Counted from the stretch's first letter, positions 16,820 through 49,019 are shown. The stretch: 64,000 bases of DNA from Thermodesulfobacteriota bacterium (GCA_965215275.1 OZ244044.1:560855-624854); one strand, 5' to 3'. The notes: generated by a model not told the origin, from the letters alone. Program-made: numbers and translations.

Positions 16820-16834
16820 AGGAGGATAAGAACA

Positions 16835-20752: not shown

Positions 20753-20845
<93 letters not shown>

Positions 20846-30411: not shown

Positions 30412-31002
30412 TCAGGACCTTGCAAATTTTATAAGCGGTTCAAAGTTAAATTTATCAGCTTCCTTCAATGCCTTGATATATACTTTCCTTATCTTGCCTT
30501 TCTGGATCAAACTGACTCCCCCACCCCAGGTGAACCTTTTCCGCTTAAGTACGTTCTCAAGAAGAATATCCGCCATCAGCCTTGAAGTCCTGCCGTTACC
30601 ATTACTGAAAGGATGGATAAAGACCAGGCGATGATGAAGTCTCGCGGCTATTTCATCCGGGGGATAGGTGTTACTTTCTATCCATATCTCCACGTCTCTG
30701 CACATATTCCTTACGGAAGAAGATATCTCCCACCATGATACCCCGATGTTCGTATCCTGTTTTCTGAAATAACCGGCGTTTTTCCATACCTGACCGAACA
30801 TCCTGCGATGCAGGTCCCTTATAAACTTTCCGCTCAGGATATTATCAGGTTTTACCTTTTTCAGCCAGATCAATGCCTCTTTAATGTTCTGATATTCCCA
30901 TCTGTTCAAATCTTCACGGTTAGTAACATGGATCAATAAAAGCTCTCTTGCCTCGTCCGGGTCGATCGGGGTTGATCCCATTGGGGCTTTATTTTTGCTC
31001 AT
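30412..31002 (-). CDS. Fic-family protein ('mobile mystery protein B')
   Basis: Fic motif HPFSNGNGRTSRL (HPFx[DE]GNGR). ~196 aa. Paired with the upstream HTH gene. Confidence 0.8.
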   Translation of the reverse strand: MSKNKAPMGSTPIDPDEARELLLIHVTNREDLNRWEYQNIKEALIWLKKVKPDNILSGKFIRDLHRRMFGQVWKNAGYFRKQDTNIGVSWWEISSSVRNMCRDVEIWIESNTYPPDEIAARLHHRLVFIHPFSNGNGRTSRLMADILLENVLKRKRFTWGGGVSLIQKGKIRKVYIKALKEADKFNFEPLIKFARS

Positions 31003-31005
31003 TGA

Positions 31006-31464
31006 CTAATCCCACAGGTCTCTGGGCATATCGTTCATTATGCCTTCCACGTCTTCTGAAAATAAATTTTTCAAATTCTTATCCTTTATTTTCTGCTTTT
31101 CAAGGACCATTGTCTGATCAACTATTTTCAGTCTTTCTCTTGCGACCTCTTCAGCTCTCTTTCTTACGGTGTCCTCCAGACTGGTCCGAGGAATAAGGCT
31201 ATAGACAAGAACACAGTCCAGACTTTCAGCAACCTTTCTGAGGGTTTTTATCGTTATGGAACCCACGACCTCATCCTGCTCAAGCCTGGCAACGCTCTGC
31301 TTGGACGTATTCAGCCTCCTGGCAAGCTGCCTTCCGCTCATTCCCAGCCCTTCCCTTATTGAACGTATCCAGCCAAGTGGAGGAGTTCTGAGCTTTTTCA
31401 GCAAAGCGAACCCGGACAAAGCCCCGTCTATCTGTTCTCTTACGATCTTTTTTTTCGTCTTCAT
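31006..31464 (-). CDS. XRE-type HTH regulator ('mobile mystery protein A'), probable antitoxin/regulator of the Fic protein
   Basis: HTH LGMSGRQLARRLNTSKQSVARLE. It sits 4 nt upstream of Fic in the same orientation. The ATG at 31464 is preferred; the track starts at TTG 31473. Confidence 0.65.
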   Translation of the reverse strand: MKTKKKIVREQIDGALSGFALLKKLRTPPLGWIRSIREGLGMSGRQLARRLNTSKQSVARLEQDEVVGSITIKTLRKVAESLDCVLVYSLIPRTSLEDTVRKRAEEVARERLKIVDQTMVLEKQKIKDKNLKNLFSEDVEGIMNDMPRDLWD

Positions 31465-31466
31465 AA

Positions 31467-31522
31467 TTGACAATATATATTATGACTTTTATTTTTATAT
31501 GACAATATATATATTGTCATAT
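31467..31522. promoter_or_regulatory. Operator/promoter with a perfect 20-bp palindrome TGACAATATATATATTGTCA (31500..31519) and a second TGACAATATATAT half-site overlapping the start codon
   Basis: Read directly. On the minus strand, TTGTCA then 17 nt then TAATAT gives a sigma70-like promoter embedded in the palindrome. Confidence 0.5.
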
Positions 31523-34891: not shown

Positions 34892-35316
34892 TCCTTCCAG
34901 TAATCAACGTAGAGATCATCCGTCTCATAAAGTCTGACCTTAAAAAGCCTGCAGTCGGCACCCCTTTGGCTCAGCTCATCCTCAATATCGCTCCACAACG
35001 TCCTGGCAATGTTCTCAGGCGTTGGTATAAGGGTCCTGAACGCTTCAACGTCCTCGTTTAAAAATTTATGGTCGTACTTTTCCAGAACGGTATTCAATAT
35101 GGATTTCAGGTCAAAGATGTTTATAACCATTCCCGTCTGTTCATCGATCTCTCCGGTAACCGTTGCCTCGACCTTGAAATTATGACCATGTCCCAAGGGA
35201 AAGGTGCTCTTGCCAAATATCTTTTTATTGGTGTCCTCGTCCCAGCTGGTGTTCCAGTACCTGTGAGAAGCTGAGAACTCAGCTTTTTGCGTTATCAGAT
35301 TTTTATGCACCGTCAT
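34888..35316 (-). CDS. PTPS/QueD-family paralog lacking the catalytic Cys
   Basis: FGKSTFPLGHGHNFKVEATV (Ser in place of Cys). Its start overlaps the queD stop. Confidence 0.65.
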   Translation of the reverse strand: MTVHKNLITQKAEFSASHRYWNTSWDEDTNKKIFGKSTFPLGHGHNFKVEATVTGEIDEQTGMVINIFDLKSILNTVLEKYDHKFLNEDVEAFRTLIPTPENIARTLWSDIEDELSQRGADCRLFKVRLYETDDLYVDYWKE

Positions 35317-36902
35317 TTAAGTTTAACCGATCTCAATATATTTTCTTCCAGGTCGGTCGCTTCCCGTGCTGCACTGGCCCTGTCCGCCAAAAGCTTATTG
35401 AAGGCAGGTCCTATCCTGTCAAGCGTAGGCTCTATCTTATCAAGAAAAGGTTTTGGATAAACGCCCATTATTATGATCATCACGGCTATCGGGAGCATGG
35501 ACACGGATTCCCTTACGTTCATATCCGAGAGTCCCCTGTTCTGTCCTTTATCCAGTGGACCGAACATGACCCTCTGATAAGCCCAGAGCATATACACTGC
35601 CCCCAGCACGAGCCCGGTCGCTCCAAAGGCCGCAAGGACGTAACTTTCCTTGAATACTCCAAGCAGGATCAGAAACTCTCCAATAAAACCATTAAGGAGA
35701 GGCAGTCCTATGGAGGCAAGCATCGCGAGCATAAAAAACGCCGCAAACACCGGCATTACCTTCGCAATACCGCCAAAATCCACGATCTTTTTAGTATGGC
35801 GACGATCGTATAACATCCCGACCAGCAAGAACAACGCACCGGTCGAAAGTCCGTGAGACACCATATGATAGACAGCTCCTTCCACTCCCTGTAAGTTCAA
35901 GACGAATATACCGAGCATGATCAATCCGAGATGACTCACGCTTGAATAGGCAACCAGTTTTTTCAAGTCTTTCTGTGCAAAAGCGACCATAGCAGCATAG
36001 ATCACACCTATGATGGCAATTATGGATAAAATGGGGACGTAAGCGATCGTTGCCTCAGGAAAGAAAGGTATCAGAAACCTTAAAAAACCATACACTCCCA
36101 TTTTAAGCAGAACACTTGCAAGGATCACGCTCCCGGCCGTTGGAGCTTCAACGTGTGCATCGGGAAGCCACGTGTGGAACGGGAACATCGGCACTTTGAT
36201 CGCAAACGCGAGAAAAAAGGCAAAAAAGCAAAGGCCTTGAGGACTTAAGAACCCTGAGAACGGCAGCGTTACGTTGTACAGGTCGTATATGTTCATTGAA
36301 GCAAAACCCATCTGCCCTTTATGTGCGAAGTAAAGATAGAGGATCGCAACAAGCATCAGACCGCTTCCCAGTGCCGTGTAAATAAAAAACTTTATCGCCG
36401 CGTAAATCCTTCTCTCTGTACCCCATATACCTATAATGAAGTACATCGGTATAAGCACCGCTTCCCAGAATACAAAGAAAAGTATCAGATCGAGTGCCGC
36501 AAAGGTTCCGATCAAAGCAGTTTCCAGAAGGAGGATAAGGCTCAGCATTTCCCCCAGTCCTTTCTGAATGGAGTTCCATGTACACAAAAGCGTAACAGGG
36601 ACTATGAAGGTCGTAAGGAGTACCAGAAGAAGACTTATGCCATCCAGACCCACGTGATAACTGATCCCCAGATCGGTCAGCCACTCCACTTTCTGTTCAA
36701 ACTGGATACCACCAAATGAACTTTTAAAATTGATGAATAAAGGAATTGAGATCAAAAACTCGATCGCGGAAACGGCAAACGCTCCAATTTTTATGTATTG
36801 CTCCGACTTTTTGAACAACAGAGAGCAAAACAGAATAAAAACGATCCCGATCAAAGGGAAAAAGATCAGCAGGCTAAGATTTACCGGAAAAAATGCGTCC
36901 AA
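35313..36902 (-). CDS. nuoM: Complex I NuoM/ND4-family proton-pumping antiporter-like subunit (529 aa, ~14 TM)
   Basis: Polytopic membrane protein with the conserved NuoM/MnhD-type core (...WLPDAHVEAPTAGSVILASVLLKMGVYGFLRF...). No other nuo genes are adjacent in the window. Confidence 0.65.
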   Translation of the reverse strand: MDAFFPVNLSLLIFFPLIGIVFILFCSLLFKKSEQYIKIGAFAVSAIEFLISIPLFINFKSSFGGIQFEQKVEWLTDLGISYHVGLDGISLLLVLLTTFIVPVTLLCTWNSIQKGLGEMLSLILLLETALIGTFAALDLILFFVFWEAVLIPMYFIIGIWGTERRIYAAIKFFIYTALGSGLMLVAILYLYFAHKGQMGFASMNIYDLYNVTLPFSGFLSPQGLCFFAFFLAFAIKVPMFPFHTWLPDAHVEAPTAGSVILASVLLKMGVYGFLRFLIPFFPEATIAYVPILSIIAIIGVIYAAMVAFAQKDLKKLVAYSSVSHLGLIMLGIFVLNLQGVEGAVYHMVSHGLSTGALFLLVGMLYDRRHTKKIVDFGGIAKVMPVFAAFFMLAMLASIGLPLLNGFIGEFLILLGVFKESYVLAAFGATGLVLGAVYMLWAYQRVMFGPLDKGQNRGLSDMNVRESVSMLPIAVMIIIMGVYPKPFLDKIEPTLDRIGPAFNKLLADRASAAREATDLEENILRSVKLK

Positions 36903-36950
36903 ATTTTGGTCCTCTTGGGTTAATGTGCGAAAAAACAGTTCAATTATACT

Positions 36951-37565
36951 TTATAGGCTGGTTTTCTCAAAACCCAAAATTACAGGTTCATATATTTCTT
37001 CTGTGAACTCAAATAGCAGGTTGGCAAGTTCATTAGCAAACTCACTCCTGTTGTGAGGTAATATCCGTTTAAGGGTTTCCATCTGTTCAAGGGTTCCCCT
37101 TGTTTGAAAATCATAGCCTGTATTTTCACAGACGGCGAGATACCACTTGTTATCAGTTATTTCTCTGTCGTCTTCAAGGTTTTTTCTAATATTTTTAATT
37201 TCTTCAGTATACTGCCTTATTTTCTCTTCAAACCTTTCCTTCTTTCTTTCATTAATCCACAGCCCATAGCAAAGATTATACCCTTCGCTGCCAGATAGCC
37301 TCTCAAAAATTACTCTAATATCACCATCTGCAAAGCAAAATCCCAACTTAGACCATTTGTTCTTAGTATAGTCTTTTTCTATCTTCCATCCTTTTTTCCC
37401 TTCTTCCACTTTTCTTTTTAATTCTCCCTTTACCTCTTCCCAGAATTCCTCTACCAACCGATCTTTAATTTTTGGAAAATTCTCTGAAATCTCACAAGCC
37501 GCAGAAAAGTTCTCCTCTGTTTCGGTTAAAAATTCAAAAACCTTTTCGTCATACTTGCTCGTCAT
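36951..37565 (-). CDS. Hypothetical protein, copy 1 of a tandemly duplicated gene (low GC)
   Basis: 204 aa MTSKYDEKVFEFLTETEENFSAACEISENFPKIK... It is about 60% identical to 38211..38789. Acidic, no recognisable catalytic motif. Confidence 0.5.
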   Translation of the reverse strand: MTSKYDEKVFEFLTETEENFSAACEISENFPKIKDRLVEEFWEEVKGELKRKVEEGKKGWKIEKDYTKNKWSKLGFCFADGDIRVIFERLSGSEGYNLCYGLWINERKKERFEEKIRQYTEEIKNIRKNLEDDREITDNKWYLAVCENTGYDFQTRGTLEQMETLKRILPHNRSEFANELANLLFEFTEEIYEPVILGFEKTSL

Positions 37566-38215
37566 TTCATTCTCCTTACTTTCATAAAAACTATAAACTA
37601 ATTATCACTTCTATATATGTTTTCAGTAAATATTTAACCTTGGATGCCCCAATCTTTCTTACATTCTCTCAGCCAATCTTTAATATATTTTTACAGCTAA
37701 TACTACATAAAACATTGTTGTCCTTTAGATACTCTCTTTTTCCTTACACATTGAAGTATTTGAAGCATCCTTGCTTCCAACCGTCAGGAAATTTATAGTT
37801 TAGCTCTAATTGATCTGATTGATCATAAGCATGTATTTTATTCTCTATCACGATAACAAATCTCTTTTGGGATTAATCAAGTGCTGCGAAGGTACTTATA
37901 AAGGCAATCTCCAGAAGAATAATCTTTAACACTTCCCCAAGCCTTTCTGAATGGAATTCCAGGTACACAAAAGCGTAACAGGAACTATAAAAGTCGTAAG
38001 GAGTACCAAAAAATTTATCCCTTATAAAACCAAATAATAACTGATTCCCAAATTAGTCAATCAATCTACTTTTTTTCAAACAACAGAGAGTAAAACAGAA
38101 TGAAAACGACCCCGATCAAGGGAAAAATCAGCAGACTAAGGTTTCCCGAAAAAATGCGTCCAAATTTTGGTCCTCTTTGGGTTGATATGAAAAAACGGTG
38201 CAATTATATTTCACG
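37566..38215. repeat. Decayed duplicate segment: 37566..37880 is a partial copy of 38790..39150 (3' end of the nuclease-family gene), and 37920..38215 is a degenerate copy of the nuoM 5' end/leader (36560..36950)
   Basis: Direct alignment by eye, for example cctttctgaatgga(a/g)ttcca(g/t)gtacacaaaagcgtaacagg and ttcattctccttactttcataaaaactataaactaat, shared between the two loci. Confidence 0.6.
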
Positions 38216-38789
38216 AGTTAGTTTTATCAGGACCTGTAATCCCCCGAATTATAGGTTCTTCTATCTCTTCTGTGAACTCAAATAGCAGGTTAGCAAGTTC
38301 ACTAGCAAATTCACTCCTGTTGTGAGGTAAGATCCGTCTAAGGGTTTCCCTTGTTTTAAAATCATAGCCTGTATCTTTATAGGCAAGCCGCCAATCGTTA
38401 CTAATCATTTCTTTGTCGTCTTTAAGTTTTTTAATCTCTGAATCGTACAGTTCTATTTTTTCTTTAAACTCTTCCTTGTTGTCGTAATTTCTCCACAGCC
38501 CATAATAGTTGCTTTTTTCACTTGATAGCCCCCCGAAAATTACTCTAATGTCACCACCTGCAAACCAAAATCCCAGATTAGCATTTTTGTTCATAGTATC
38601 GCCTTCTTTTTTTATATCCCATCCTTTTTCATTTTTTCTTTCTAATTCTCCCTTTACCTCTTCCCAGAACTCTTTTATAAATCGTTCTTTAATTTTTGGA
38701 AAGTTCTCTGAAATCTCACAAGCCGCAGAAAAGTTCTCCTCTGTTTCGGTTAAAAATTCAAAAATTTTTTCGTCATATTTGCTCGTCAT
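38211..38789 (-). CDS. Hypothetical protein, copy 2 of the duplicated gene
   Basis: 192 aa paralog of 36951..37565, with the same N-terminus MTSKYDEKIFEFLTETEENFSAACEISENFPKIKE and C-terminus RILPHNRSEFA(S/N)ELANLLFEFTEEI. Confidence 0.5.
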   Translation of the reverse strand: MTSKYDEKIFEFLTETEENFSAACEISENFPKIKERFIKEFWEEVKGELERKNEKGWDIKKEGDTMNKNANLGFWFAGGDIRVIFGGLSSEKSNYYGLWRNYDNKEEFKEKIELYDSEIKKLKDDKEMISNDWRLAYKDTGYDFKTRETLRRILPHNRSEFASELANLLFEFTEEIEEPIIRGITGPDKTNS

Positions 38790-38814
38790 TTCATTCTCCT
38801 TACTTTCATAAAAA

Positions 38815-39558
38815 CTATAAACTAATGATTACTTCTATATATGCTTTCAGTAAATATTTAACCTTGGATGCCTCAACATCTTTCATACATTCTTCCAGCC
38901 AAGTTTTAATATCGTTTTTATAACTAATATCACGTAATACATCTTTACCCTTTAGTTCATTTTCTAATTCCTGCTTGATTGTATAATCTGAAGCATCTTT
39001 TCCTTGAACCGTCAGATAAAATAATGCCATTTGTTCATCTTTATACCTTTTGCTTAGAAATTCATGGTATCGCTTTAATTGATCTTCTTGATCAGAGGCA
39101 TATATTTTATTCTCTATCACGATACCAAATCTCTTTTGGGGATCATTGGAATGAACGTACAGGTCTAATCTGCCCCATCCCGTGTGATACTCTTTACCGA
39201 CTATATAGCCGCTTTCCTTTTCAAGTTTAAAATGTTCCCTTTTTTCTTCCGAAATAAACCTGTCAATGAAGGACCGTAAGAATAAACCACCTTGTCCATG
39301 CGTGCCGTCCGGCTGTAACAGGTCTTTCAAAAATAGGGTATGTGTTTTTTCAGAAGTACTGACATCTATGATCTTAAAAATATTGTAATCAAATGCCTCT
39401 TTTTTATTGCACTCCGCAAACTTAGACCTAAAAGTATTATAATGTCCCAGCAGTGCCTGGAAATTCTGCTTAAACTCATCCACCCTTTCATCTGCAGTTT
39501 CTTCGGAAAACCGTCTGTAACGGTCTAAAAAGGATGATATTCGTTCTGTTTCATTCAT
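38815..39558 (-). CDS. PD-(D/E)xK nuclease-family protein
   Basis: GWGRLDLYVHSNDPQKRFGIVIENKIYASDQEDQLKRY gives a D...E-x-K catalytic triad arrangement. Low GC. It is adjacent to tRNA-fMet. Confidence 0.45.
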   Translation of the reverse strand: MNETERISSFLDRYRRFSEETADERVDEFKQNFQALLGHYNTFRSKFAECNKKEAFDYNIFKIIDVSTSEKTHTLFLKDLLQPDGTHGQGGLFLRSFIDRFISEEKREHFKLEKESGYIVGKEYHTGWGRLDLYVHSNDPQKRFGIVIENKIYASDQEDQLKRYHEFLSKRYKDEQMALFYLTVQGKDASDYTIKQELENELKGKDVLRDISYKNDIKTWLEECMKDVEASKVKYLLKAYIEVIISL

Positions 39559-39633
39559 AGATAAACTAACCTAAACTTACCCGTAACTTGACATACTTTA
39601 TCTATCAAATACACTCTAAAAAGTATTTTCAGG

Positions 39634-39710
<77 letters not shown>

Positions 39711-39728
39711 TTACCAGTTTCGTAAATT

Positions 39729-40793
39729 TCATTTCTGAACTGCAAAAGTCTCTATCTCTTTAACGAGTTCATCCACGATCTGGCTTTCCTTAAAAGAGCG
39801 GACAAGTTTTCCATCCTTGTAAAGCATGCCTTTTCCCCTGCCCCCGGCTATTCCTATATCAGCCTCCGAAGCCTCACCCGGACCATTTACCACGCAACCG
39901 AGTATCGCCACTTTTACCGGTTTGGGCAGTTCAATACCGTGAACTCTCTTTTCAACGTCGTTGACGAGTTTCACAAGATCGATCTCCAGCCTTCCACAGC
40001 CGGGACATGATATAAGTTCAATACCGTTGTTTCTTATCCCCAGGGATTTAAGGATGTTTATACCCGCTATGACCTCATTGACCGGATCACCCGTTAGTGA
40101 CACTCTGATAGTATCCCCTATGCCATCCACCAAAAGAGTTCCTATACCAATTGAGGATTTTACCACCCCCATTTTGGGGGTTCCTGCCTCGGTTACGCCA
40201 AGATGGAGCGGATATTCTGTCTTTTCCGCAAGAAGTCTGTACGCTTTTACCATCTTTCTTACGTCGGTGGATTTAACCGAGATCTTAATGTCATAAAAGT
40301 CAAAATCCTCCAGAATACTTACGTGTCTGAGAGCACTTTCAACTAAGGCCTCGGCCGTGGGACTTCCATGCTTTTTCAGTATGTCTTTTTCAAGCGAACC
40401 GGAATTAACGCCGATCCTGATCGGGATGCCTCTCTCCTTCACGGCATCCACAACGGTTTTTATCCTGTATCTTGCACCTATGTTACCGGGATTGATCCTC
40501 ATACCGTCAACGCCCTGGTTAACTGCTTCAAGAGCAAGTTTGTAGTCAAAGTGAATATCTGATATCAGCGGGATATTTATCTGCTTTTTTATTTCTCCTA
40601 TTGCTTTGGCCGCGTAAATATCCGGAACTGCCACGCGTACTATATCGCAGCCAGCGTCCTCCAGCTCGCGTATCTCGGCAACCGTAGCATCTACGTCCCT
40701 CGTATCCGTTATCGTCATTGACTGAACGGACACGGGAGCACCGCCTCCTATTTTTATGTTTCCAACCGAGATCTGCCTGGACTCTCTGATCAT
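39729..40793 (-). CDS. ispG: 4-hydroxy-3-methylbut-2-en-1-yl diphosphate synthase (flavodoxin)
   Basis: ISVGNIKIGGGAPVSVQSMT... and the C-terminal Cys motifs ISCPGCGR... Confidence 0.9.
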   Translation of the reverse strand: MIRESRQISVGNIKIGGGAPVSVQSMTITDTRDVDATVAEIRELEDAGCDIVRVAVPDIYAAKAIGEIKKQINIPLISDIHFDYKLALEAVNQGVDGMRINPGNIGARYRIKTVVDAVKERGIPIRIGVNSGSLEKDILKKHGSPTAEALVESALRHVSILEDFDFYDIKISVKSTDVRKMVKAYRLLAEKTEYPLHLGVTEAGTPKMGVVKSSIGIGTLLVDGIGDTIRVSLTGDPVNEVIAGINILKSLGIRNNGIELISCPGCGRLEIDLVKLVNDVEKRVHGIELPKPVKVAILGCVVNGPGEASEADIGIAGGRGKGMLYKDGKLVRSFKESQIVDELVKEIETFAVQK

Positions 40794-40986
40794 ATCAGGG
40801 GACTATCCTATACAAAACCGTCTCTGGTTTCAACTATATTAACCACTTTCTGGCAATACACGAACTATCTTTACACTGAAAAGGACCAATGAACGTAATA
40901 CTTTGAAAAAAGTTTTAAAGCTGTATATTTTAGTTTATTTTAAATCGTTCATACGTTAAGGCAATCAACGGAGGTTTCAGCTAAAC

Positions 40987-42537
40987 ATGGAAATTGACGG
41001 GTCAAAATTGTTAGAAGATCATAAGATTAAAAACACAGGAAAGGTATATTACAACCTTTCCATTCCTGAACTTTACGAAGAGGCAATAAGACGAGGCGAG
41101 GCACAAATTGGACAAGAAGGTACATTGATCGGGGATACAAGACCGCACACGGGAAGATCGCCCAAGGACAGATTTATAGTTAAAGAACCTTCGACAGAAG
41201 ATAAAATCGACTGGGGTCAGGTAAATCAACCGATCTCACCCGAGGCATTCGATTCTCTTTACAACAAGGTCGTAAATTACTTTGAAAGTAAGGACGTTTT
41301 TGTAAGGGACCTCTGTGTTTGTGCTCATGAGAACTATAAAACGAACGTCAGGGTGATAAACGAGTTTGCATGGCATAACGTTTTTGTAAATAATCTTTTT
41401 ATAAGACCTAACGCAGATGATCTGCCCCATAAAAATGTTGACTTTACAGTTATTTCCGCTCCCGGATTCAAAGCTGACCCTGAAACGGATTCCACAAGAA
41501 CAGAAACCTTTATAATCCTGAACCTGCAAAAAAGAATAGCCCTGATAGGTGGGACCAAATACGCAGGTGAGATGAAAAAATCCGTGTTCGCCGCTATGAA
41601 TTTCCTGTTACCTGAAAAGAACGTGTTTCCCATGCACTGCTCCGCCAACGTCGGCAAAAAAGGTGATGTTGCCTTGTTCTTCGGACTGTCAGGAACTGGA
41701 AAGACAACATTATCAGCGGACCCGGAGAGAAAGCTTATAGGCGACGACGAACACGGGTGGTATGATCAGGGGGTATTTAACTTTGAAGGTGGATGCTATG
41801 CCAAGGCAATCAAGTTAAGTCCGAAGACGGAACCTGAAATTTATAACGCAACTCTGCGTTTCGGGTCGGTTGTAGAAAACGTGGAACTTGATCCGAAAAC
41901 AAGAAAAATAGATTTCAACAGCGATAAATTTACCGAAAATACAAGAAGTGCATATCCGCTTACTTCATTAAATGGAACTGTTGAAAATGGATTAGGAAAT
42001 ATCCCTTCAACAATTTTTATGCTTACCTATGATGCGTTCGGTGTTCTGCCTCCCATATCTAAACTAACTCCTCAGCAGGCAATGTATTTCTTTCTACTTG
42101 GCTATACTGCAAAAGTGGCAGGAACGGAGAGAGGCGTGAGCGAACCTCAGGCAACGTTCAGTTCTTGCTTTGGAGCTCCTTTTCTTCCACGACCGCCAAA
42201 GTTTTACGGTGAGATGTTAAAAAATAAAATGGAGAAGCACAAGGTTGAGATATGGCTGCTTAACACTGGTATATGTGGAGGACCTTATGGTATCGGACAA
42301 AGAATGCCACTTCCATCAACCAGAGACCTGGTCACCGCGGCAATGAATGGAACTTTGAACAAATCCGAATTTGTGGAAATTCCCATTCTTGGACTCAAGG
42401 TTCCAGCAAAGTGCCAGAGCGTCGCTTCAAACCTTTTACAACCCAGGCTTTCGTGGAGCAATCCTGAAGAATATGACGCAAAGGCAAATGAATTAAAAAA
42501 ACTGTTTGAAGAAGAATATAACAAATATCGGAAATAA
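40987..42537 (+). CDS. pckA: Phosphoenolpyruvate carboxykinase (ATP)
   Basis: FFGLSGTGKTTLSADP...IGDDEHGW... kinase-1a motif. Confidence 0.9.
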   Translation: MEIDGSKLLEDHKIKNTGKVYYNLSIPELYEEAIRRGEAQIGQEGTLIGDTRPHTGRSPKDRFIVKEPSTEDKIDWGQVNQPISPEAFDSLYNKVVNYFESKDVFVRDLCVCAHENYKTNVRVINEFAWHNVFVNNLFIRPNADDLPHKNVDFTVISAPGFKADPETDSTRTETFIILNLQKRIALIGGTKYAGEMKKSVFAAMNFLLPEKNVFPMHCSANVGKKGDVALFFGLSGTGKTTLSADPERKLIGDDEHGWYDQGVFNFEGGCYAKAIKLSPKTEPEIYNATLRFGSVVENVELDPKTRKIDFNSDKFTENTRSAYPLTSLNGTVENGLGNIPSTIFMLTYDAFGVLPPISKLTPQQAMYFFLLGYTAKVAGTERGVSEPQATFSSCFGAPFLPRPPKFYGEMLKNKMEKHKVEIWLLNTGICGGPYGIGQRMPLPSTRDLVTAAMNGTLNKSEFVEIPILGLKVPAKCQSVASNLLQPRLSWSNPEEYDAKANELKKLFEEEYNKYRK

Positions 42538-42740: not shown

Positions 42741-45700
42741 CTACGTCTTTATCTGATATCTTCTCTTCCTTCTGATAGCTACTGACACGGGTATAAGTAT
42801 CAGACATGCCATTACTCCAAGCAGATCAGGAACAACGTTGCTCTGATCTGAGACAGCACATCCTCCTCCACCTCCACCTGCTTCAGTATCTGGTGCTGGT
42901 CTTGGTCTTGGATTTGGTGGTGGCGGCGGAGCAGGAGGAGCCTCTACAATAAGTATGAAACTCACCTCATCCGTATCTCCATTCCTGTCCGTTACTATAT
43001 ACCTGTAAGTATCAGTCGATGCTCTCGTCGGTGTGCCACTTATTTCTCGGGTAACTTCGTTAAAACTCAATCCAGCTGGCAGATCAGGAGTTATACTGTA
43101 AGTAACTGGTGGATTCCCTCCCGTTGCCTCTGGCAGCGTTATTGGTCTCCCTGCTGTGTACTCCATTTGAGTAGAAATTGTCGTACCGTCAAGGTCTGGA
43201 GTGCTGTCTTCTTCTATTGTTATTCTGAACATCAACTCAGCTGTATCTCCATCTACATCTGTAACACTCCATGTATAAGGAGTTTCATGCATCGCAGTAG
43301 TGGGTGTACCGCTTATTTCTTGAGTAGCTGAGTTAAAACTCAATCCAGTTGGCAATGCAGGCGTTATACTGTACCTTAATCCTCCATTCCCTGATGTTGC
43401 TGCAGGCAGCGTTACCGGTGTTATTGAACTCCCTGCTATATATTCCTTATCATCTATCGTCTCACCACTAAAAGTTGGCATTGCGTCTGCTAATATTGTG
43501 ATCCCGAACATCAACTCAGCTGTATCTCCATCTACGTCAGTTACAGTATATGTATAAACTGTTCTGCTCGCTGCAGTAGTCGGTGTCCCGCTTATCTCGC
43601 GGGTAGCAGGGGTAAAAATCAATCCAGCAGGTAATCCAGGTGTTATACTGTAAGTTAATGTTCCGTTCCCTCCCGCTGCTGCAGGCAGCGTTACCGGAAG
43701 GTTTATTGTTTTCCCTGCTATGTACTCCTGATCATCTATCATATCACTGAAGGTTGGTTCTTCATTTGCAGTTACAGTGATACCGAACGTCAACTTTGCA
43801 GTATCTCCATCTATGTCTTCTACCGTATATGTATAAGTATCCTTACTCATTGCAGTAGCCGGTGTCCCACTTATCTCGCGGGTATTTTCGTTAAAATCCA
43901 ATCCAGTTGGTAACTTAGGTGTTAAACTGTAAGTTAATGTTCCATTCCCTCCTGCTGCCTCAGGCAGCGTTACTGGAATGTTTATTGTTTTCCCTGCTAT
44001 GTACTCCTGATTAGCTATCGTATCACTGAAACTTGGTTCTTCGTTTGCAGCTACTGTGATACCGAAACTCAAATCAGCCGTATCTCCATCTATGTCTTCT
44101 ACCGTATATGTATAAGTATCCTTACTCATTGCAGTAGCCGGTGTCCCACTTATCTCGCGGGTAGCAGAGGTAAAGATTAATCCAGTCGGTAATGCAGGCG
44201 TTAAACTGTAAGTTAATGGAGCATTTCCTCCCGCTGCTGCAGGCAGTGTCACCGGAAGGTTTGTCGTTTTCCCTGCTATATACTCCTGATTAGCTATCGT
44301 ATCACTGAAACTTGGTTCTTCGTTTGCAGCTACTGTGATACCGAAACTCAAATCAGCCGTATCTCCATCTTTGTCTCTTACCGTATACGTGTAAGTACCA
44401 GATGATGCACTCGCAGGTGTGCCGCTTATCACTCGGGTAGATGCGTTAAAATACAATCCAGTTGGTAACTTAGGTGTTAAACTGTAAGTTAATGGAGCAT
44501 TCCCTCCCGCTGCTGCAGGTAATGTTACAGGAAGGTTTGTTGTTTTCCCTGCTATGTACTCCTGATCGGTTATCGCATCACTGAAGGCTGGTTCTTCGTT
44601 TGCAGCCACTGTGATACCGAAACTCAATTCATCCGTATCCCCGTCTTCGTCCGTTACTGTATATGTATAAACTGTTCTGCTCGCTGCAGTAGTCGGTGTC
44701 CCGCTTATCTCGCGGTGGGGGGGGGTAGATGCGTTAAAATTCAATCCAGTTGGTAATGTTGGGGTTATACTGTATCTTAATGCTCCATTCCCTCCCGTTG
44801 CCTCAGGTAGTATTTCCGTTACTGCGATACCCGTCAGATACTCCTTATCAGCTATCATCTCACCGCCAAAAGTCGGTTCTGTGTCTGCTTCTACCGTGAT
44901 CCCAAACCTTAACTCAAACCTATCTCCGTCTTTGTCTCTTACCGTATACGTGTAAGTACCAGATGATGCACTCACAGGTGTGCCGCTTATCACTCGGGTA
45001 GATGCGCTAAAATTTAATCCAGCAGGTAATATAGGTGTTATACTGTAAGTTAATGGAGCATTCCCTCCCGCTGCTGCGGGCAGTGTTACCGGAAGGTTCG
45101 TTGCCGTCCCTGCTACGTACTCCTGATCATCTATCGTCTCACTGAAAGTTGGTCTGTCGTCTGCAGCTACTGTGATCCCGAACATCAGATCATCCGTATC
45201 TCCGTCTTTATCTGTTACCGTATACGTGTAAGTATCCTCAGGCATTGCAGTAGTGGGTGTGCCACTTAGCACTCGGGTAATTTCGTTCAAATCCAATCCA
45301 GCAGGTAAAGCAGGCGTTATAGTATATCTTAATGTTCCATTCCCTCCCGTTGCCTCAGGCAGCGTTACAGGAAGGTTTGTTGTTTTCCCTGCTATGTACT
45401 CCTGATCACCTATCATCTTACCGCCAAAGTCCGGCAGGCTGTCTGCTTCTACCGTGATCCCGAATGTCAAATCATCCGTATCTCCGTCTTTGTCTCTTAC
45501 CGTATACGTGTAAGTATCCTTAGGCATTGCAGCAGTGGGTGCGCCACTTATCTCTCGGGTAGCAGGGGTAAAGATCAATCCAGCAGGTAAAGAAGGATTT
45601 AAACTGTATATTAAATCTCCATTCCCTCCCGTTGCCTCAGGCAGCGTTACAGGAAGATTTGCTGTTTTCCCTGCTACGTACTCCTTATCAGCTATCATAT

Positions 45701-48700
45701 TACCGCCAAAGTCCGGCATGCTGTCTGCTTCTACCGTGATCCCGAACGTCAGATCATCACTATCTCCGTCTTTGTCTGTTACAGTATATGTATACATTCT
45801 CTTATTCGTTGCAGTAGTGGGTGTGCCACTTATCTCTCGGGTGGTTTCGTCAAAATCCAATCCAGCAGGTAAATCAGGTGTTATAGTGTATCTTAATGTT
45901 CCATTCCCTCCCGTTGCTTCAGGCAGCGTTACTGGAAGATTTGTTGTTTTCCCTGCTACGTACTCCTTATCAGCTATCATATTACCGCCAAATTCCGGCA
46001 TGCTGTCAGTTTCTACTGTGATCCCGAACGTCAGATCAGCTGTATCTCCTTCTTCGTCTCTTACCGTATACGTGTAAGTACCAGATGATGCACTCTCAGG
46101 TGTGCCACTTAGCACTCGGGTAGCAGGGGTAAAGATCAATCCAGCTGGTAAAGCAGGTGTTATACTATAGGTTAATGCTCCATCCCCTCCCACTGCAACA
46201 GGTAGAGTTTCCGTTATTGCTGTATCCGTAACATACTCCTTATCAGATATAGTCTCGCCGCTAAAGGTCGGCACATCAGATCCTACAGTGATCCCGAACT
46301 TTATTTGATCTGTATCTCCATCACCATCGATAACAGTATATGTATACATGGTCTTACTCGTTACAGTAGTGGGTGTTCCACTTATCTCTCGGGTGGTTTC
46401 GTCAAAATCCAATCCATCTGGTAAAAAAGAGAATATGACGGGTATATCAGAAGGAGCTAAACTGTACGTTAAGGTTCCATTCCCTCCCGTTGCAGCAGGT
46501 AGTATTTCCGTTACTGCGACACCCGTCAGATACTCCTTATCAGCTATCATATTACTGCCAAAGTCCGGCATTCTGTCAGCTTCTACCGTGATCCCGAACG
46601 TCAACTCATCCGTATCTCCTTCTTCGTCTTCTGCTGTATACGTGTAAACAGTCTTACTCATTGCAGTAGTGGGTGTTCCGCTTATCTCTCGGGTAGCAGG
46701 GGTAAAGATCAATCCAGTTGGTAAAGCAGGTGTTATACTATAGGTTAATGCTCCATCCCCTCCCACTGCAACAGGTAGAGTTTCCGTTATTGCTGTATCC
46801 GTAACATACTCCTTATCAGATATAGTCTCGCCGCTAAAGGTCGGCACATCAGATCCTACAGTGATCCCGAACTTTATTTGAGATGTATCTCCTTCATCAT
46901 CAGTAGCAGCATATGTATACATGGTCTTGCTCGTTACAGTAGTGGGTGTCCCGCTTATCTCTCGGGTGGCTTCGTCAAAATCCAATCCATCCGGCAAAGC
47001 AGGTGTTAAACTATAAATTAATGTTCCATTCCCTCCCGCTGCCTCAGGCAGTGTTTCCGTTACTGCAATACCCGTCAGATACTCCTTATCAGTTATCATA
47101 TTACTGCTAAAGCTTGGTACTGTATCGTCACTCCTATGACCATAGACTTTGATACTCCACGAGTGCAAGGTCCCGACATCTCTAGAAGCAGTATCAGAGA
47201 TATTAAGGGTCCATTCTCCAGCAGGATCTTCTCCTAGGTGTTTAGCTGAACCAAAACGATGAGTGTAATTGGTATAAGAGGTACGTGTTCCAAAAAGAAA
47301 AGCAAAGACCATAGCTCCCTGTACATGCTCCTTTGAAAGTTTCGACACGGTACCGTCAGGGGAGGTTATCTGTATCTCCAGATCTGCAAAGAAAGTGTGA
47401 GTGAACCTGAGATTGATCTCTACAAATTCCGTAAAAAGGTCAGTATCGGATATGTTCAGGCTGGAAATAATTTCTCCGTCTGCTCCACCTGTGTGATCGG
47501 GGATCGCTGTATTAATATTACCCGAGGAAGCAGTCAGGGTTTTCATCTGTGCAACCCGGTTCCAATTTTCGGCAAGTTCCACTGCCGCTTCAGCATCTAC
47601 TACGCCAAAACCGTACTTTGGATTGTAATTATAACTGTCTGTATCAGAACCGTATTTAAGTGCTCCCGTTTCCCAGCCCGGGTCGGTCGGGTCGTTCCTG
47701 CGAGCTGAAGCTGCCAGTATCAACTTCAGGTCCCTCCAGCTCAGATCACCGTTTACCTCTCTCATCAGTGCTGCTACACCTGAAACGGCCGGAGCGGAAA
47801 ATGATGTTCCTTCCTCTCTAAAACCATAGCGGTCGTTATTAGCGGTCGTTGTAATAAACGAACCTGGAGCACATATCCATAGACTTACTCCCTCTTCTGA
47901 AAAGGAACTTTTCCTGCCGAAACCGTCTACTGAACAGACAGAAGTTACGGCGTAGTAATTAGAATACTCTTCAAAATTAGCTTGGTCGTATAAAGTATGT
48001 CCATTTCCAGCCGACCAGACATAAAAAACTCCTTTACCACCAAACCCTTCCCTGATACCCGTTTCCACTGCCAGTTCCCAGGCTCTCCCGGAATTATGAA
48101 GACTGGGACGATCTGTTGCTCCCCAGCTGTTGCTGGATACCGCTGTTATAACGTGATTACGGGTCATAGCGTCTGCTATATTAGCTGAAGTACCATTACT
48201 CCCATCTAACAAGTTATAACTGTAGATACTTGCCTGAGGTGCTACCCCTCTCACGCCCAGTTCATTATCACCCACTGCCGCTATAACGCCCCCTGTTCGT
48301 GTACCATGACCTAAAGGACTGAATACATTATCGTTTCCGGAGTAATCATGATTGAGGTCGGAATTCACATTGTCAGCAAGGTCCTCATGATCGGAGTCTA
48401 TACCATCATCGACCACCGCAACGTTAATGCCACTCGCCAATATTTCATCATTCCAGACCCCCTCCACGTTTATATCCTCTCCGGCGGTTATTCTCTGCCC
48501 GTTAAATCTCCACTGCCCCGTATTGTTCAGATGCCACTGACAACCGTATAAAGGGTCGTCGGGAAAACCGGTGATAAGGTCCTCACAATCAGAGGAAGAA
48601 GTATTATCTCTGGTATCCGTTATAACCTGAAGCTGGTACTGGTCGGCACCACTGCTTCCCACGACGATATAGTACGTTCCCGGAACGAGAGGAGCTGAAA

Positions 48701-49019
48701 TATTCCGATTATCGTTGCTGTCACTTGCTATCAGGTCATCACTGCTGTCACACAACTGTAAACTGTAATCGAGATTATTACTGGTAAAGACTGTCCTTAT
48801 AATGACGTCAATATCGGACGCCGGGTCCATCTGAAAGTAATGCAGCCCGCCGGCACTTTCAAAACTCCCATCGTGTGCCGCTCCGTCCACTGTCAACGTG
48901 GCTTCGGTCACTGCACCGGAGTCACAGTTATTATCACTGGTCTGACCATAGGCAGCTATGGACGTTAAAAAGCACAGCATAAAAAAGATAAAGGGAATTA
49001 TATGCATAACTTCATACAC
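42741..49019 (-). CDS. Giant (2092 aa) secreted subtilisin-like (S8) serine protease with P-domain, ~14 tandem ~97-aa He_PIG/dystroglycan-cadherin-like repeats and a GlyGly-CTERM-like C-terminal sorting tail
   Basis: Signal peptide. S8 triad regions VAVVDDGID, GHGTRTGGVIAA and GTSFSAPAVSGVAALM. Repeats of the form LPEATGGNGTLTYSLTPALPAGLDFDETTREISGTPTT. C-terminus PPAPPPPPNPRPRPAP..GGGGGGCAVS + TM helix + RRKRRYQIKT. Confidence 0.8.
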   Translation of the reverse strand: MYEVMHIIPFIFFMLCFLTSIAAYGQTSDNNCDSGAVTEATLTVDGAAHDGSFESAGGLHYFQMDPASDIDVIIRTVFTSNNLDYSLQLCDSSDDLIASDSNDNRNISAPLVPGTYYIVVGSSGADQYQLQVITDTRDNTSSSDCEDLITGFPDDPLYGCQWHLNNTGQWRFNGQRITAGEDINVEGVWNDEILASGINVAVVDDGIDSDHEDLADNVNSDLNHDYSGNDNVFSPLGHGTRTGGVIAAVGDNELGVRGVAPQASIYSYNLLDGSNGTSANIADAMTRNHVITAVSSNSWGATDRPSLHNSGRAWELAVETGIREGFGGKGVFYVWSAGNGHTLYDQANFEEYSNYYAVTSVCSVDGFGRKSSFSEEGVSLWICAPGSFITTTANNDRYGFREEGTSFSAPAVSGVAALMREVNGDLSWRDLKLILAASARRNDPTDPGWETGALKYGSDTDSYNYNPKYGFGVVDAEAAVELAENWNRVAQMKTLTASSGNINTAIPDHTGGADGEIISSLNISDTDLFTEFVEINLRFTHTFFADLEIQITSPDGTVSKLSKEHVQGAMVFAFLFGTRTSYTNYTHRFGSAKHLGEDPAGEWTLNISDTASRDVGTLHSWSIKVYGHRSDDTVPSFSSNMITDKEYLTGIAVTETLPEAAGGNGTLIYSLTPALPDGLDFDEATREISGTPTTVTSKTMYTYAATDDEGDTSQIKFGITVGSDVPTFSGETISDKEYVTDTAITETLPVAVGGDGALTYSITPALPTGLIFTPATREISGTPTTAMSKTVYTYTAEDEEGDTDELTFGITVEADRMPDFGSNMIADKEYLTGVAVTEILPAATGGNGTLTYSLAPSDIPVIFSFLPDGLDFDETTREISGTPTTVTSKTMYTYTVIDGDGDTDQIKFGITVGSDVPTFSGETISDKEYVTDTAITETLPVAVGGDGALTYSITPALPAGLIFTPATRVLSGTPESASSGTYTYTVRDEEGDTADLTFGITVETDSMPEFGGNMIADKEYVAGKTTNLPVTLPEATGGNGTLRYTITPDLPAGLDFDETTREISGTPTTATNKRMYTYTVTDKDGDSDDLTFGITVEADSMPDFGGNMIADKEYVAGKTANLPVTLPEATGGNGDLIYSLNPSLPAGLIFTPATREISGAPTAAMPKDTYTYTVRDKDGDTDDLTFGITVEADSLPDFGGKMIGDQEYIAGKTTNLPVTLPEATGGNGTLRYTITPALPAGLDLNEITRVLSGTPTTAMPEDTYTYTVTDKDGDTDDLMFGITVAADDRPTFSETIDDQEYVAGTATNLPVTLPAAAGGNAPLTYSITPILPAGLNFSASTRVISGTPVSASSGTYTYTVRDKDGDRFELRFGITVEADTEPTFGGEMIADKEYLTGIAVTEILPEATGGNGALRYSITPTLPTGLNFNASTPPHREISGTPTTAASRTVYTYTVTDEDGDTDELSFGITVAANEEPAFSDAITDQEYIAGKTTNLPVTLPAAAGGNAPLTYSLTPKLPTGLYFNASTRVISGTPASASSGTYTYTVRDKDGDTADLSFGITVAANEEPSFSDTIANQEYIAGKTTNLPVTLPAAAGGNAPLTYSLTPALPTGLIFTSATREISGTPATAMSKDTYTYTVEDIDGDTADLSFGITVAANEEPSFSDTIANQEYIAGKTINIPVTLPEAAGGNGTLTYSLTPKLPTGLDFNENTREISGTPATAMSKDTYTYTVEDIDGDTAKLTFGITVTANEEPTFSDMIDDQEYIAGKTINLPVTLPAAAGGNGTLTYSITPGLPAGLIFTPATREISGTPTTAASRTVYTYTVTDVDGDTAELMFGITILADAMPTFSGETIDDKEYIAGSSITPVTLPAATSGNGGLRYSITPALPTGLSFNSATQEISGTPTTAMHETPYTWSVTDVDGDTAELMFRITIEEDSTPDLDGTTISTQMEYTAGRPITLPEATGGNPPVTYSITPDLPAGLSFNEVTREISGTPTRASTDTYRYIVTDRNGDTDEVSFILIVEAPPAPPPPPNPRPRPAPDTEAGGGGGGCAVSDQSNVVPDLLGVMACLILIPVSVAIRRKRRYQIKT
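44717..44725. repeat. G9 homopolymer (C9 in sense orientation) inside one protease repeat, in frame
   Basis: cgcggtgggggggggtagatg. It encodes the unique ASTPPHREISG insertion; other repeats have ASTR(E/V)ISG. Confidence 0.8.

What the first reader, a model, noticed from the sequence alone, without database searches (positions are those of the whole stretch)
36540..39560. Low-GC islet by tRNA-fMet with a decayed tandem duplication that copied the 5' end of nuoM
Two paralogous hypothetical genes (36951..37565 and 38211..38789) share an N-terminus (MTSKYDEK(V/I)FEFLTETEENFSAACEISENFPKIK) and a C-terminus. Between them, 37566..37880 is a deleted copy of the 3' end of the PD-(D/E)xK gene (38815..39558), and 37920..38215 is a mutated copy of the nuoM start region (36560..36950). 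The duplicated unit was therefore [nuclease 3' part - hypothetical gene - nuoM 5' part], with one copy of each broken gene decaying. The islet (~35% GC) lies between the nuoM-like gene and tRNA-fMet. The nuclease-family protein plus a small acidic partner could be a toxin/immunity or defence pair.
Basis: seen in the sequence. Interest (0 to 1): 0.55.

Follow-up and report, generated by a model that had tools for sequence, protein, structure and literature searches.

The report
Duplicated half of split defence nuclease
A small AT-rich islet next to the initiator tRNA gene carries a candidate anti-phage nuclease that is split into two genes, and an old, genuine tandem duplication has given it a second copy of the non-catalytic half that differs sharply between otherwise near-identical strains.

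Summary
Window 36489..37875 and 37876..39140 are head-to-tail copies of a ~1.39 kb unit, about 80% identical. The unit is [nuclease 3' part - 'hypothetical' gene - nuoM promoter and 5' part]. One broken nuclease copy and one broken nuoM copy have decayed. It is not an artefact. Two other assemblies (L001, L090) carry the same junction and the same remnant deletions. A sister species (L002) keeps the single-copy state.

The new result is that the 247-aa PDDEXK_4 nuclease and the ~200-aa 'partner' are the N- and C-terminal halves of one protein family. PADLOC lists this family as the untested single-gene defence candidate PDC-S26. The split two-gene form is widespread.

Both copies of the C-half gene are kept intact: all indels are in frame and the ribosome-binding site is identical. 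The adjacent remnants, by contrast, collect frameshifts and stops.

The nuclease-proximal copy is 97% identical (protein) between strains. The nuoM-proximal copy is only 62% identical although flanking genes are 98-100% identical. Its central part diverges about 2.7 times faster than the neighbouring pseudogene remnants.

Best reading: one catalytic half is served by two alternative regulatory or recognition halves, one of them diversifying. This function is inferred, not shown. Overall it is a new variant of a known candidate kind, of moderate interest.

The parts
35313..36902 (-). Functional stand-alone nuoM-like gene (529 aa). Its first ~414 nt (36489..36902) lie inside duplication copy A.
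   Evidence: Pfam Proton_antipo_M E 6e-80. NCBIfam TIGR01972 NDH_I_M E 2e-179. 98.3% identical in L001.
36489..37875 (-). Duplication copy A (nuoM-proximal unit): nuoM 5' part, hypA and the nuclease 3' remnant.
   Evidence: BLASTN and MAFFT self-alignment.
36943..36970 (-). Promoter-like site (TTGAGA-16-TATAAT, 11/12) upstream of nuoM, overlapping the end of hypA.
   Evidence: Consensus scan. Site counts in the region are not above shuffles, so this is only suggestive.
36951..37565 (-). hypA: nuoM-proximal paralogue of the C-terminal-half gene (204 aa). Intact and strain-hypervariable.
   Evidence: PADLOC PDC-S26 profile positions 216-406/413, E 6e-13. Only 62% aa identity to its L001 counterpart while flanks are 98-100%. 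All indels are multiples of 3.
37566..37875 (-). Pseudogene remnant of the last ~350 nt of the nuclease gene, plus the intact 25-nt spacer with AAGGAG (37566..37590) in front of hypA.
   Evidence: 80.7% identical to 38815..39140, with a 41-nt deletion and 1-2-nt indels. Stops in all frames. The same 41-nt deletion is in L001.
37876..38210 (-). Pseudogene remnant of the nuoM 5' end (37876..38203) with its upstream region.
   Evidence: About 80% identical to 36489..36950 with a 115-nt deletion and frameshifts. The same deletion is in L001.
38203..38230 (-). Copied nuoM promoter-like site (CTGATA-16-TATAAT, 10/12) overlapping the nuoM remnant's upstream region and the end of hypB. It could drive transcription through the remnants into hypA.
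   Evidence: Consensus scan. Function is inferred only.
37876..39140 (-). Duplication copy B (nuclease-proximal unit): nuoM 5' remnant, hypB and the 3' part of the functional nuclease gene.
38211..38789 (-). hypB: nuclease-proximal C-terminal-half gene (192 aa), the copy in the ancestral position.
   Evidence: PADLOC PDC-S26 positions 216-408/413, E 4e-14. 97.4% identical in L001. AF2 model pLDDT 95.
38790..38814 (-). 25-nt spacer between the nuclease stop and the hypB start, carrying the Shine-Dalgarno AAGGAG. It is 100% identical to the copy in front of hypA.
38815..39558 (-). N-terminal (catalytic) half: PDDEXK_4 nuclease, 247 aa.
39634..39710 (+). tRNA-fMet (CAT) bounding the islet. The islet lies on its 5' side.
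   Evidence: ARAGORN. Rfam tRNA 61.6 bits. C1xU72 mismatch and three G:C pairs in the anticodon stem, read.

Best explanation
SHOWN. The islet encodes a two-gene (fissioned) version of a PDDEXK_4 / PADLOC PDC-S26-type nuclease. It comprises a 247-aa catalytic half with an intact D...ExK motif. Twenty-five nt downstream, behind its own Shine-Dalgarno sequence, lies a ~190-aa gene for the domain that forms the C-terminal half of the 360-420-aa fused family members.

One illegitimate recombination joined a point inside the nuclease gene to a point ~414 nt inside nuoM. This produced a ~1.39-kb tandem duplication. The event is older than the split of the two sampled strains and younger than the split from the sister species. 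It left one nuclease gene, one nuoM gene, two decaying stubs and two intact C-half genes.

Selection has kept both C-half genes open. The copy in the ancestral position (hypB) and the nuclease are almost frozen between strains. The extra copy (hypA) has diverged to 62% aa identity, mostly in its central alpha/beta part.

INFERRED. The C-half docks on the nuclease half through its conserved N-terminal helices and C-terminal helix. It then acts as the regulatory or recognition module, either as a sensor or an auto-inhibitor that licenses cleavage. The duplication therefore supplies one effector with two alternative modules. The spare one can diversify, by positive selection and/or exchange of old alleles between strains, as expected for a locus in conflict with phages or other mobile DNA. 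hypA is probably transcribed by read-through from nuc-hypB and/or from the copied nuoM promoter.
For: Duplication.

Real and old: L001 and L090 share the same junction, the same 41-nt and 115-nt remnant deletions and the same gene order. L002 is single-copy. Informative sites group the copies 86 'by copy' against 1 'by genome'.

Fission: the nuclease hits PDC-S26 profiles at positions ~10-209 and hypA/hypB hit the same profiles at 216-406. Fused homologues contain the hyp N-terminal motif (...ENFQTAALVASNFQEIKKQIV...). A profile built from nuclease homologues that include fused ones hits hypA/hypB at positions 228-400, E 1e-6 to 4e-7.

Fission is widespread. 294 clusters at 50% identity match the hyp profile, and nearly all of the best 150 are stand-alone proteins of 172-222 aa. 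In L083/L084, L085/L086, L088 and L089 the homologue sits directly after a 241-256-aa PDDEXK_4 gene.

Selection on both copies: all 5-9 indels per pair inside the hyp CDS are multiples of 3. Remnant indels are mostly not, and the remnants carry stops in every frame. The spacer with its SD is 100% identical.

Hypervariability, window vs L001: flank dS is 0.04-0.12 and dN <= 0.007. hypB dN is 0.013. hypA dN is 0.223, and 0.363 for codons 44-165. The neutral yardstick from the two remnants is 0.125-0.14. Central hypA against the remnants gives Fisher p = 5e-7.

Independent recurrence: the fused relative P0027 carries two tandem C-modules that are 82% identical.

Against: No experiment exists for any PDDEXK_4 or PDC-S26 protein. 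Steczkiewicz et al. 2012 list the function as 'Unknown' (PMC3424549). The PDC systems are 145 untested candidates (bioRxiv 10.1101/2024.01.29.577857).

Here the islet is flanked by housekeeping genes, not by defence systems.

Pairwise omega never exceeds 1: 0.7 over the whole gene and 0.83 over the central part. Positive selection therefore rests on the comparison with pseudogene remnants. It can equally be explained by import of a divergent allele, because synonymous differences in same-amino-acid codons are 11% against 6.5% in the flanks.

Confidence: 0.6

Rival explanations
1. Neutral by-product. The duplication is an accidental illegitimate-recombination event with no functional consequence. 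hypA is a redundant spare evolving under relaxed constraint on its way to becoming a pseudogene.
For: omega for hypA between strains is 0.7, and 0.83 for the central part, close to neutrality. The other two pieces of the duplicated unit have already decayed. The variable positions coincide with the positions that are least conserved in the family at large.
Against: hypA is intact in both allele lineages, despite 18.5% nucleotide divergence between them (25% in the central part). It has 5-9 indels per comparison, all in frame. Remnants of half the length alongside it have frameshifts, large deletions and stops. Its divergence (0.31 per site in the central part) exceeds the neutral rate estimated from the remnants (0.125-0.14). 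Pure relaxation cannot produce that. The SD and spacer are perfectly conserved.
Confidence: 0.2
2. Toxin-antitoxin reading. The C-half is an antidote that neutralises the nuclease half. The second copy is an extra or orphan antitoxin, for example protecting against related incoming nucleases.
For: The C-half proteins are small, acidic (pI about 4.9) and encoded immediately downstream of the nuclease. The bicistronic arrangement is conserved in distant lineages. This overlaps with the best explanation if 'regulatory module' means an inhibitor.
Against: In most described family members (PADLOC profiles of 358-451 positions, and fused homologues of 365-423 aa) the same domain is covalently part of the nuclease protein. 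That fits an integral domain better than a separable labile antitoxin. Pfam/NCBIfam gave no significant (antitoxin or other) match and the fold search no informative neighbour.
Confidence: 0.15
3. The strain difference in hypA reflects homologous recombination that imported an old, divergent allele, or a balanced polymorphism. It would not then be in-situ accelerated evolution.
For: Coalescence depth is strongly heterogeneous over 2 kb. There are 0 differences over about 850 nt of nuc-hypB (39250..38400). The remnants differ by about 12%. Central hypA differs by 25% (raw; 0.31 corrected). Synonymous differences in conserved codons of hypA are 11% (16% central) against 6.5% in the flanks. Tree arithmetic on dN places the split between the two A alleles close to the duplication itself.
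Against: The remnants directly adjoining hypA on the same unit are only about as diverged as neutral expectation for these two strains. Any imported tract must therefore be short and end near the gene borders. Both A alleles share derived states (KRKV, QYTEEI) and the same remnant deletions.
Confidence: 0.4
4. Assembly artefact, or a site-specific integrative island (tRNA-associated, or carrying a replacement nuoM 5' end).
For: The locus is next to a tRNA gene and has low GC.
Against: The copies are only about 80% identical, so reads cannot have been collapsed or doubled. Two other assemblies reproduce the structure. There is no integrase in the islet and no repeat of any part of the tRNA. The islet lies on the 5' side of the tRNA. 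The repeated unit is colinear over three genes, as in a plain tandem duplication.
Confidence: 0.02

Closest known systems
PADLOC PDC-S26 (single-gene 'phage defence candidate') = Pfam PDDEXK_4 (PF14281) proteins of ~360-450 aa
   Same: The N-terminal PDDEXK_4 nuclease domain has the conserved D...ExK motif. The C-terminal ~190-residue domain is homologous to hypA/hypB. Together the two window genes cover profile positions ~10-406 of 413.
   Different: Here the protein is split into two genes with their own SD, and the C-half gene is present twice. The locus is not embedded in BREX, DISARM or RM type I. No member of the family has a demonstrated function.
Fused toxin-antitoxin / sensor-effector defence proteins with a variable C-terminal sensing domain (e.g. 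CapRel-type), and Shedu (SduA)-type PD-(D/E)xK effectors with variable accessory domains. Named from my own knowledge as a lead only.
   Different: No sequence or specific structural relationship was found. The role of the C-half as a sensor is inference.
Heterodimeric / multi-subunit restriction enzymes with separate catalytic and specificity subunits (R.BspD6I small subunit; Type I HsdS duplication and variation)
Ordinary tandem segmental duplication by illegitimate recombination, followed by pseudogenisation of truncated gene copies
   Same: There are head-to-tail colinear copies and a chimeric junction (nuoM interior joined to nuclease interior at about 37875/37876). The truncated copies have decayed, and a relative retains the single-copy ancestral state.
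   Different: Nothing differs mechanistically. The unusual aspect is the fate of the fully duplicated gene.

Membership tests
Tandem segmental duplication | Two adjacent, colinear, same-orientation copies with a novel junction | tested here: met
   36489..37875 and 37876..39140 abut directly. BLASTN E 0.0 and MAFFT about 80% identity.
Tandem segmental duplication | Reproducible in independent data and absent (single copy) in a relative | tested here: met
   L001 and L090 have the same junction and remnant deletions. L002 is single-copy.
PD-(D/E)xK nuclease superfamily / Pfam PDDEXK_4 | Significant match to PF14281 above the gathering score | tested here: met
   124.1 bits against a cut-off of 22.3, E 8e-36, profile 1-182/183.
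PD-(D/E)xK nuclease superfamily / Pfam PDDEXK_4 | Catalytic D ... (D/E)xK residues present | tested here: met
   D132, E149 and K151 are invariant in a 20-sequence alignment. The fold search returns PD-(D/E)xK nucleases.
PD-(D/E)xK nuclease superfamily / Pfam PDDEXK_4 | Nuclease activity | not testable with these tools
   No biochemical data exist for any family member.
PADLOC PDC-S26 | Both halves of the profile (nuclease and C-terminal domain) present | tested here: met
   The nuclease covers positions 10-209 and hypA/hypB cover 216-406/408 of PDLC04983.
PADLOC PDC-S26 | Single-gene architecture (one ~360-450-aa protein) | tested here: not met
   There are two genes separated by a stop and a 25-nt spacer in a different frame. 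The arrangement is conserved in L001 and L002. The locus is therefore related to, but not a canonical member of, PDC-S26.
PADLOC PDC-S26 | Embedded in or adjacent to BREX, DISARM or RM type I (the basis on which PDCs were proposed) | tested here: not met
PADLOC PDC-S26 | Anti-phage activity | not testable with these tools
   PDCs are explicitly untested.
tRNA-associated integrative genomic island | Integrase gene and direct repeat of the tRNA 3' end at the far border | tested here: not met
   There is no integrase ORF in 36951..39633 and no repeat involving 39634..39710. The islet lies on the 5' side of the tRNA.
tRNA-associated integrative genomic island | Deviant base composition | tested here: met
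   GC 0.347 against 0.446 for the window.
Diversity-generating retroelement (as the cause of hypA variability) | Adenine-specific mismatches between template and variable repeat | tested here: not met
   Mismatches between the copies involve all four bases (A 0.16-0.17, C 0.25-0.28, G 0.22-0.31, T 0.13 per base).
Diversity-generating retroelement (as the cause of hypA variability) | Nearby reverse transcriptase | not tested
   No dedicated search for a reverse transcriptase was run. The islet holds only the three genes and the two remnants.
Bacterial initiator tRNA (tRNA-fMet) | CAT anticodon, 1:72 mismatch, three consecutive G:C pairs at the bottom of the anticodon stem | tested here: met
   ARAGORN gives Met(CAT). 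C1xU72 and G29-31:C39-41 were read from the sequence. The near-identity to E. coli tRNAfMet is recalled from memory.

The most novel reading that the evidence does not exclude
The PDDEXK_4/PDC-S26 family is a modular immune nuclease. Its uncharacterised C-terminal domain has no Pfam model and no close solved fold, and it would be the target-sensing or licensing module. Gene fission lets that module be duplicated and swapped as a cassette. One nuclease half would then be armed with several alternative sensors that diversify between strains. The window (two C-half genes) and the independent fused protein P0027 (two C-modules in one chain) would be two snapshots of the same evolutionary strategy.
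Probability: 0.25. Interest if true: 0.6.

Novelty: new variant of a known kind. Interest (0 to 1): 0.4.

Why it matters
PDDEXK_4 / PDC-S26 is one of many candidate defence genes with no known mechanism. This work shows that its C-terminal half is an autonomous, widely detached domain, found in at least 294 sequence clusters. That domain folds confidently on its own (pLDDT 95). It is kept under selection when duplicated, and it is the part that varies between near-identical strains. Together these points identify which part to test as the specificity or regulatory determinant. They also provide natural allele pairs (hypA against hypB, and window against L001) for swap experiments. The locus is also a clean, datable example of how a segmental duplication sorts its contents: truncated genes decay while the complete gene is retained and diversifies. 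None of this overturns current views, and the duplication itself is ordinary.

Tried and rejected
- Searching the species-representative genomes with hypA found no relative. The window's species is evidently not in that collection.
- The nuoM query there returned only relatives at 71% identity or less (Ca. Dadabacteria and 'Thermodesulfobacteriota' MAGs), and none of them carries the islet genes.
- A JGI metagenome scan with the hyp alignment found nothing.
- The look-up of encoding contigs has neither the window's nuclease nor hypA on record.
- The third word-index protein search, with the alignment, added no new close alleles.
- The afdb50 fold library was unavailable.
- PDB sequence searches were empty.
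- Pfam and NCBIfam gave nothing significant for hypA or hypB. PHROGs gave only marginal hits for hypA/hypB and none for the nuclease.
- tblastn of hypB against plasmids gave no match.
- Rfam found only the tRNA in 35000..41000.
- Promoter and terminator scans were not above shuffles.
- A DGR-type mechanism was considered and not supported, because the mismatch spectrum is not adenine-specific.
- A tRNA-integrating island and an element carrying a replacement nuoM 5' end were rejected, because there is no integrase and there are no att repeats.
- I first read the cluster of hypB differences between strains as gene conversion from hypA. Polarising with L002 showed they are mostly window-specific derived changes, so I dropped that claim.
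- The stretch from the nuclease 3' end to the hyp N-terminus (alignment columns 226-450) has only 4 copy-specific sites. That may reflect an old conversion tract or constraint. This is unresolved.

Full report
**1. Observation.**
- Three minus-strand ORFs lie between a nuoM-like gene (35313..36902) and a plus-strand tRNA-Met(CAT) at 39634..39710. They are 36951..37565 (204 aa, 'hypA'), 38211..38789 (192 aa, 'hypB') and 38815..39558 (247 aa).
- Self-BLASTN of the region gives two colinear direct matches. They are 36808..37871 against 38073..39140 (809 bits, E 0.0) and 36489..36702 against 37876..38081 (E 3e-36).
- The repeat finder resolves the same thing into 13 colinear families spaced 1224-1383 nt apart.
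- In a global alignment of the two units, every segment is about 80% identical over ungapped columns: nuclease 3' part 80.7%, hyp gene 79.8%, hyp-nuoM spacer 78.7%, nuoM 5' part 80.3%. The 25-nt spacer that carries the AAGGAG ribosome-binding site in front of each hyp gene is 100% identical.
- The two copies abut directly at about 37875/37876, so the unit was ~1.39 kb.

**2. The broken copies are decaying.**
- Relative to the functional gene, the nuclease stub (37566..37875) has a 41-nt deletion and 1-, 1- and 2-nt indels.
- The nuoM stub (37876..38203) has a 115-nt deletion and several 1- and 3-nt indels.
- Both have stop codons in all three frames.

**3. Not an artefact, and old.**
The hyp protein family has only four close clusters among 5.8 billion, and these led to the orthologous locus in other assemblies.
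- L001 (ENA ERZ21848999) is a conspecific strain. Its flanking proteins are 98-100% identical and flank dS is 0.04-0.12.
- L001 has the same gene order, the same chimeric junction, the same 41-nt deletion in the nuclease stub and the same ~115-nt deletion in the nuoM stub.
- L090, from a sibling sample, is a third assembly with the same structure. It differs from L001 by 1 nt in 10.9 kb.
- L002 (Logan SRR23261226) is a sister species (nuoM 92% aa, dS about 0.47). It has the undisrupted single-copy order PDDEXK_4 - hyp - nuoM.
- Informative sites group the sequences 'by copy' 86 times and 'by genome' once.
- Both copies are closer to each other than to L002.
- The duplication was therefore a single event. 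It occurred after the split from the L002 lineage and well before the two strains separated.
- The exact breakpoint is blurred by later substitutions. A short GAT(C) microhomology is possible.

**4. What the genes are.**
- The 247-aa protein is a PDDEXK_4 nuclease (PF14281, E 8e-36). D132, E149 and K151 are invariant in the family.
- The key result came from PADLOC. The nuclease matches the PDC-S26 profiles over positions ~10-209 of ~413 (E 7e-51). hypA and hypB match the same profiles over positions 216-406 (E 6e-13 and 4e-14).
- Fused homologues of 365-423 aa contain the hyp N-terminal motif right after the nuclease domain. An example is ...IVDLMANQENFQTAALVASNFQEIKKQIV....
- A profile built from nuclease homologues that include fused ones hits hypA/hypB at its positions 228-400.
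- The 'partner' is thus the detached C-terminal domain of the same protein family.
- The fission is conserved in L001 and L002 and is common elsewhere. An exhaustive profile search found 294 clusters at E <= 1e-3, and nearly all of the best 150 are stand-alone proteins of 172-222 aa.
- In all four distinct distant loci inspected (six contigs: L083/L084, L085/L086, L088, L089) the homologue lies directly downstream of a 241-256-aa PDDEXK_4 gene.
- Function is unknown. Steczkiewicz et al. 2012 list PDDEXK_4 as 'Unknown' (PMC3424549). The PDC systems are 145 untested candidates proposed by 'guilt-by-embedding' (bioRxiv 10.1101/2024.01.29.577857).

**5. The C-half fold.**
- With a 72-sequence alignment, hypB folds with pLDDT 95. 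The model has two N-terminal helices, a five-stranded antiparallel sheet with two helices, and a long C-terminal helix.
- There is no viral match, no PDB sequence match and no Pfam family.
- I draw no function from the fold.

**6. Fate of the two complete copies.**
- Every indel within the hyp coding sequence, in every pairwise comparison (5-9 per pair), is a multiple of three. Both copies keep the identical spacer and SD.
- This contrasts with the stubs beside them and indicates selection for both open reading frames.
- Between the window and L001 the nuclease is 99% identical and hypB is 97% identical (aa).
- There are no nucleotide differences at all over about 850 nt spanning 39250..38400.
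- hypA is only 62% identical, with dN 0.223 against 0.013 for hypB and <= 0.007 for flanking genes.
- The differences concentrate in codons 44-165, the sheet and its helices, where dN is 0.363. The terminal helices are conserved.
- The two pseudogene stubs, used as a local neutral yardstick, differ by 0.125-0.14 per site between the strains. Central hypA differs by 0.31 per site (Fisher p = 5e-7).
- hypA therefore changes faster than neutral DNA next to it.
- Two explanations remain open. One is positive diversifying selection. The other is replacement by an old, divergent allele through recombination.
- The import explanation is favoured by two observations: synonymous differences in conserved codons are 11% against 6.5% in the flanks, and coalescence depth across the locus is extremely uneven.
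- Pairwise omega stays below 1 (0.7 overall, 0.83 central). I therefore do not claim proven positive selection.
- A DGR-like mechanism is not supported, because mismatches are not adenine-specific.

**7. An independent parallel.**
- The closest fused relative is P0027 (653 aa, L087). It carries the nuclease domain followed by two tandem C-modules that are 82% identical.
- Again the C-terminal helix is identical and the differences sit in the first two-thirds of the module.
- Caveat: that contig is a 6x long-read assembly.

**8. The islet.**
- GC is 0.347 for 36951..39633, against 0.446 for the window and 0.44-0.46 for the flanks.
- The tRNA has a C1xU72 mismatch and three G:C pairs in the anticodon stem, which are initiator features read.
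- The islet lies on the tRNA's 5' side. It contains no integrase, and no part of the tRNA is repeated. A classical tRNA-integrating island is therefore not supported.
- In more distant relatives (Ca. Dadabacteria-like MAGs, nuoM 57-71% identical) the islet genes are absent.
- In those relatives the position upstream of nuoM holds other accessory genes: a TnpB in L008 and a DUF6997/DUF7226 protein in L005. This hints at a variable spot.
- No empty site could be defined, because synteny on that side is not conserved.

**9. Mechanism, with the steps marked.**
Shown:
- A split nuclease gene.
- One duplication event.
- Decay of the truncated pieces.
- Retention of both C-half genes.
- Strain-level hypervariability of the extra copy.

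Inferred:
- The C-half binds the nuclease half through its conserved terminal helices and acts as a regulatory or recognition module.
- The duplication gives one effector two alternative modules.
- hypA is expressed by read-through and/or from the copied nuoM promoter-like site at 38203..38230. Its original is at 36943..36970, and site counts are not above shuffles.

Rivals:
- hypA is a drifting spare copy.
- The C-half is a classical antitoxin.
- The hypA difference reflects pure allele import.
- The structure is an artefact or an integrative element. This one is rejected.

**10. Verdict.**
The added value is the identification of the pair as a fissioned PDC-S26/PDDEXK_4 protein, and the contrast between a frozen and a hypervariable C-half paralogue. 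This is a new variant of a known but functionally untested kind. The duplication mechanism itself is ordinary. Interest is moderate.

Noticed in passing
window 10337..19669 (+), next to tRNA-Ser 20755..20845 (-) and tRNA-Leu 21391..21472 (+): Three large consecutive ORFs: an SNF2/ResIII helicase with a NOV_C (DUF3883) end (1208 aa), a DUF1156 protein (951 aa) and a DUF499 protein (944 aa). This looks like a DNA-modification-type defence cluster. The window would then hold a second, larger defence-like locus.
   Followed up: no
window 42741..49019 (-): A 2092-aa ORF with a subtilase domain, a proprotein-convertase P-domain and about 15 He_PIG Ig-like repeats.
   Followed up: no
window 30412..31473 (-): An HTH_3 gene followed by a Fic/DOC gene, a possible toxin-antitoxin-like pair. 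It is conserved in L001, L002 and L090.
   Followed up: no
window 35313..36902 (-) and loci L003-L012: The nuoM-like gene stands alone. No other nuo gene is adjacent, and it is followed by two PTPS genes and folE. The nuoM-PTPS-PTPS linkage is kept in most of the distant Dadabacteria-like relatives (L003-L012). It may therefore not be a complex I subunit in the usual sense.
   Followed up: partly
window 39250..38400 vs L001 4547..5397: There are zero nucleotide differences over about 850 nt (3' half of the nuclease gene plus most of hypB) between two strains whose flanking genes have dS of about 0.09. This suggests a very recent transfer or sweep of this segment, or an unusual constraint.
   Followed up: partly
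L087 6001..7962 (protein P0027): A fused PDDEXK_4 protein with two tandem C-modules. It also has a ~30-residue internal repeat inside the nuclease part (KFVP.YKKDSFNLADKNDYCIKEEK twice). It comes from a 6x long-read contig, so errors are possible.
   Followed up: partly
L008 6684..7907 and L005 6948..7844 (immediately upstream of the nuoM orthologue): Different accessory genes occupy the position of the islet in relatives. L008 has a TnpB (OrfB_IS605 plus Cas12f-like TNB). L005 has a DUF6997/DUF7226 protein. This may be a hotspot for insertions.
   Followed up: partly
window 38066..38203 (-): The nuoM stub still contains a 45-aa ORF (TTG start) encoding the first transmembrane helix of nuoM, behind the copied promoter-like site and leader. 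It is probably meaningless, but a small membrane peptide could be made.
   Followed up: no
L088 5842..6654: In one distant split PDDEXK_4 locus the next gene downstream is an S-AdoMet lyase family protein, with a Cas4-like/DUF2779 protein and an REase-ARP protein nearby.
   Followed up: no
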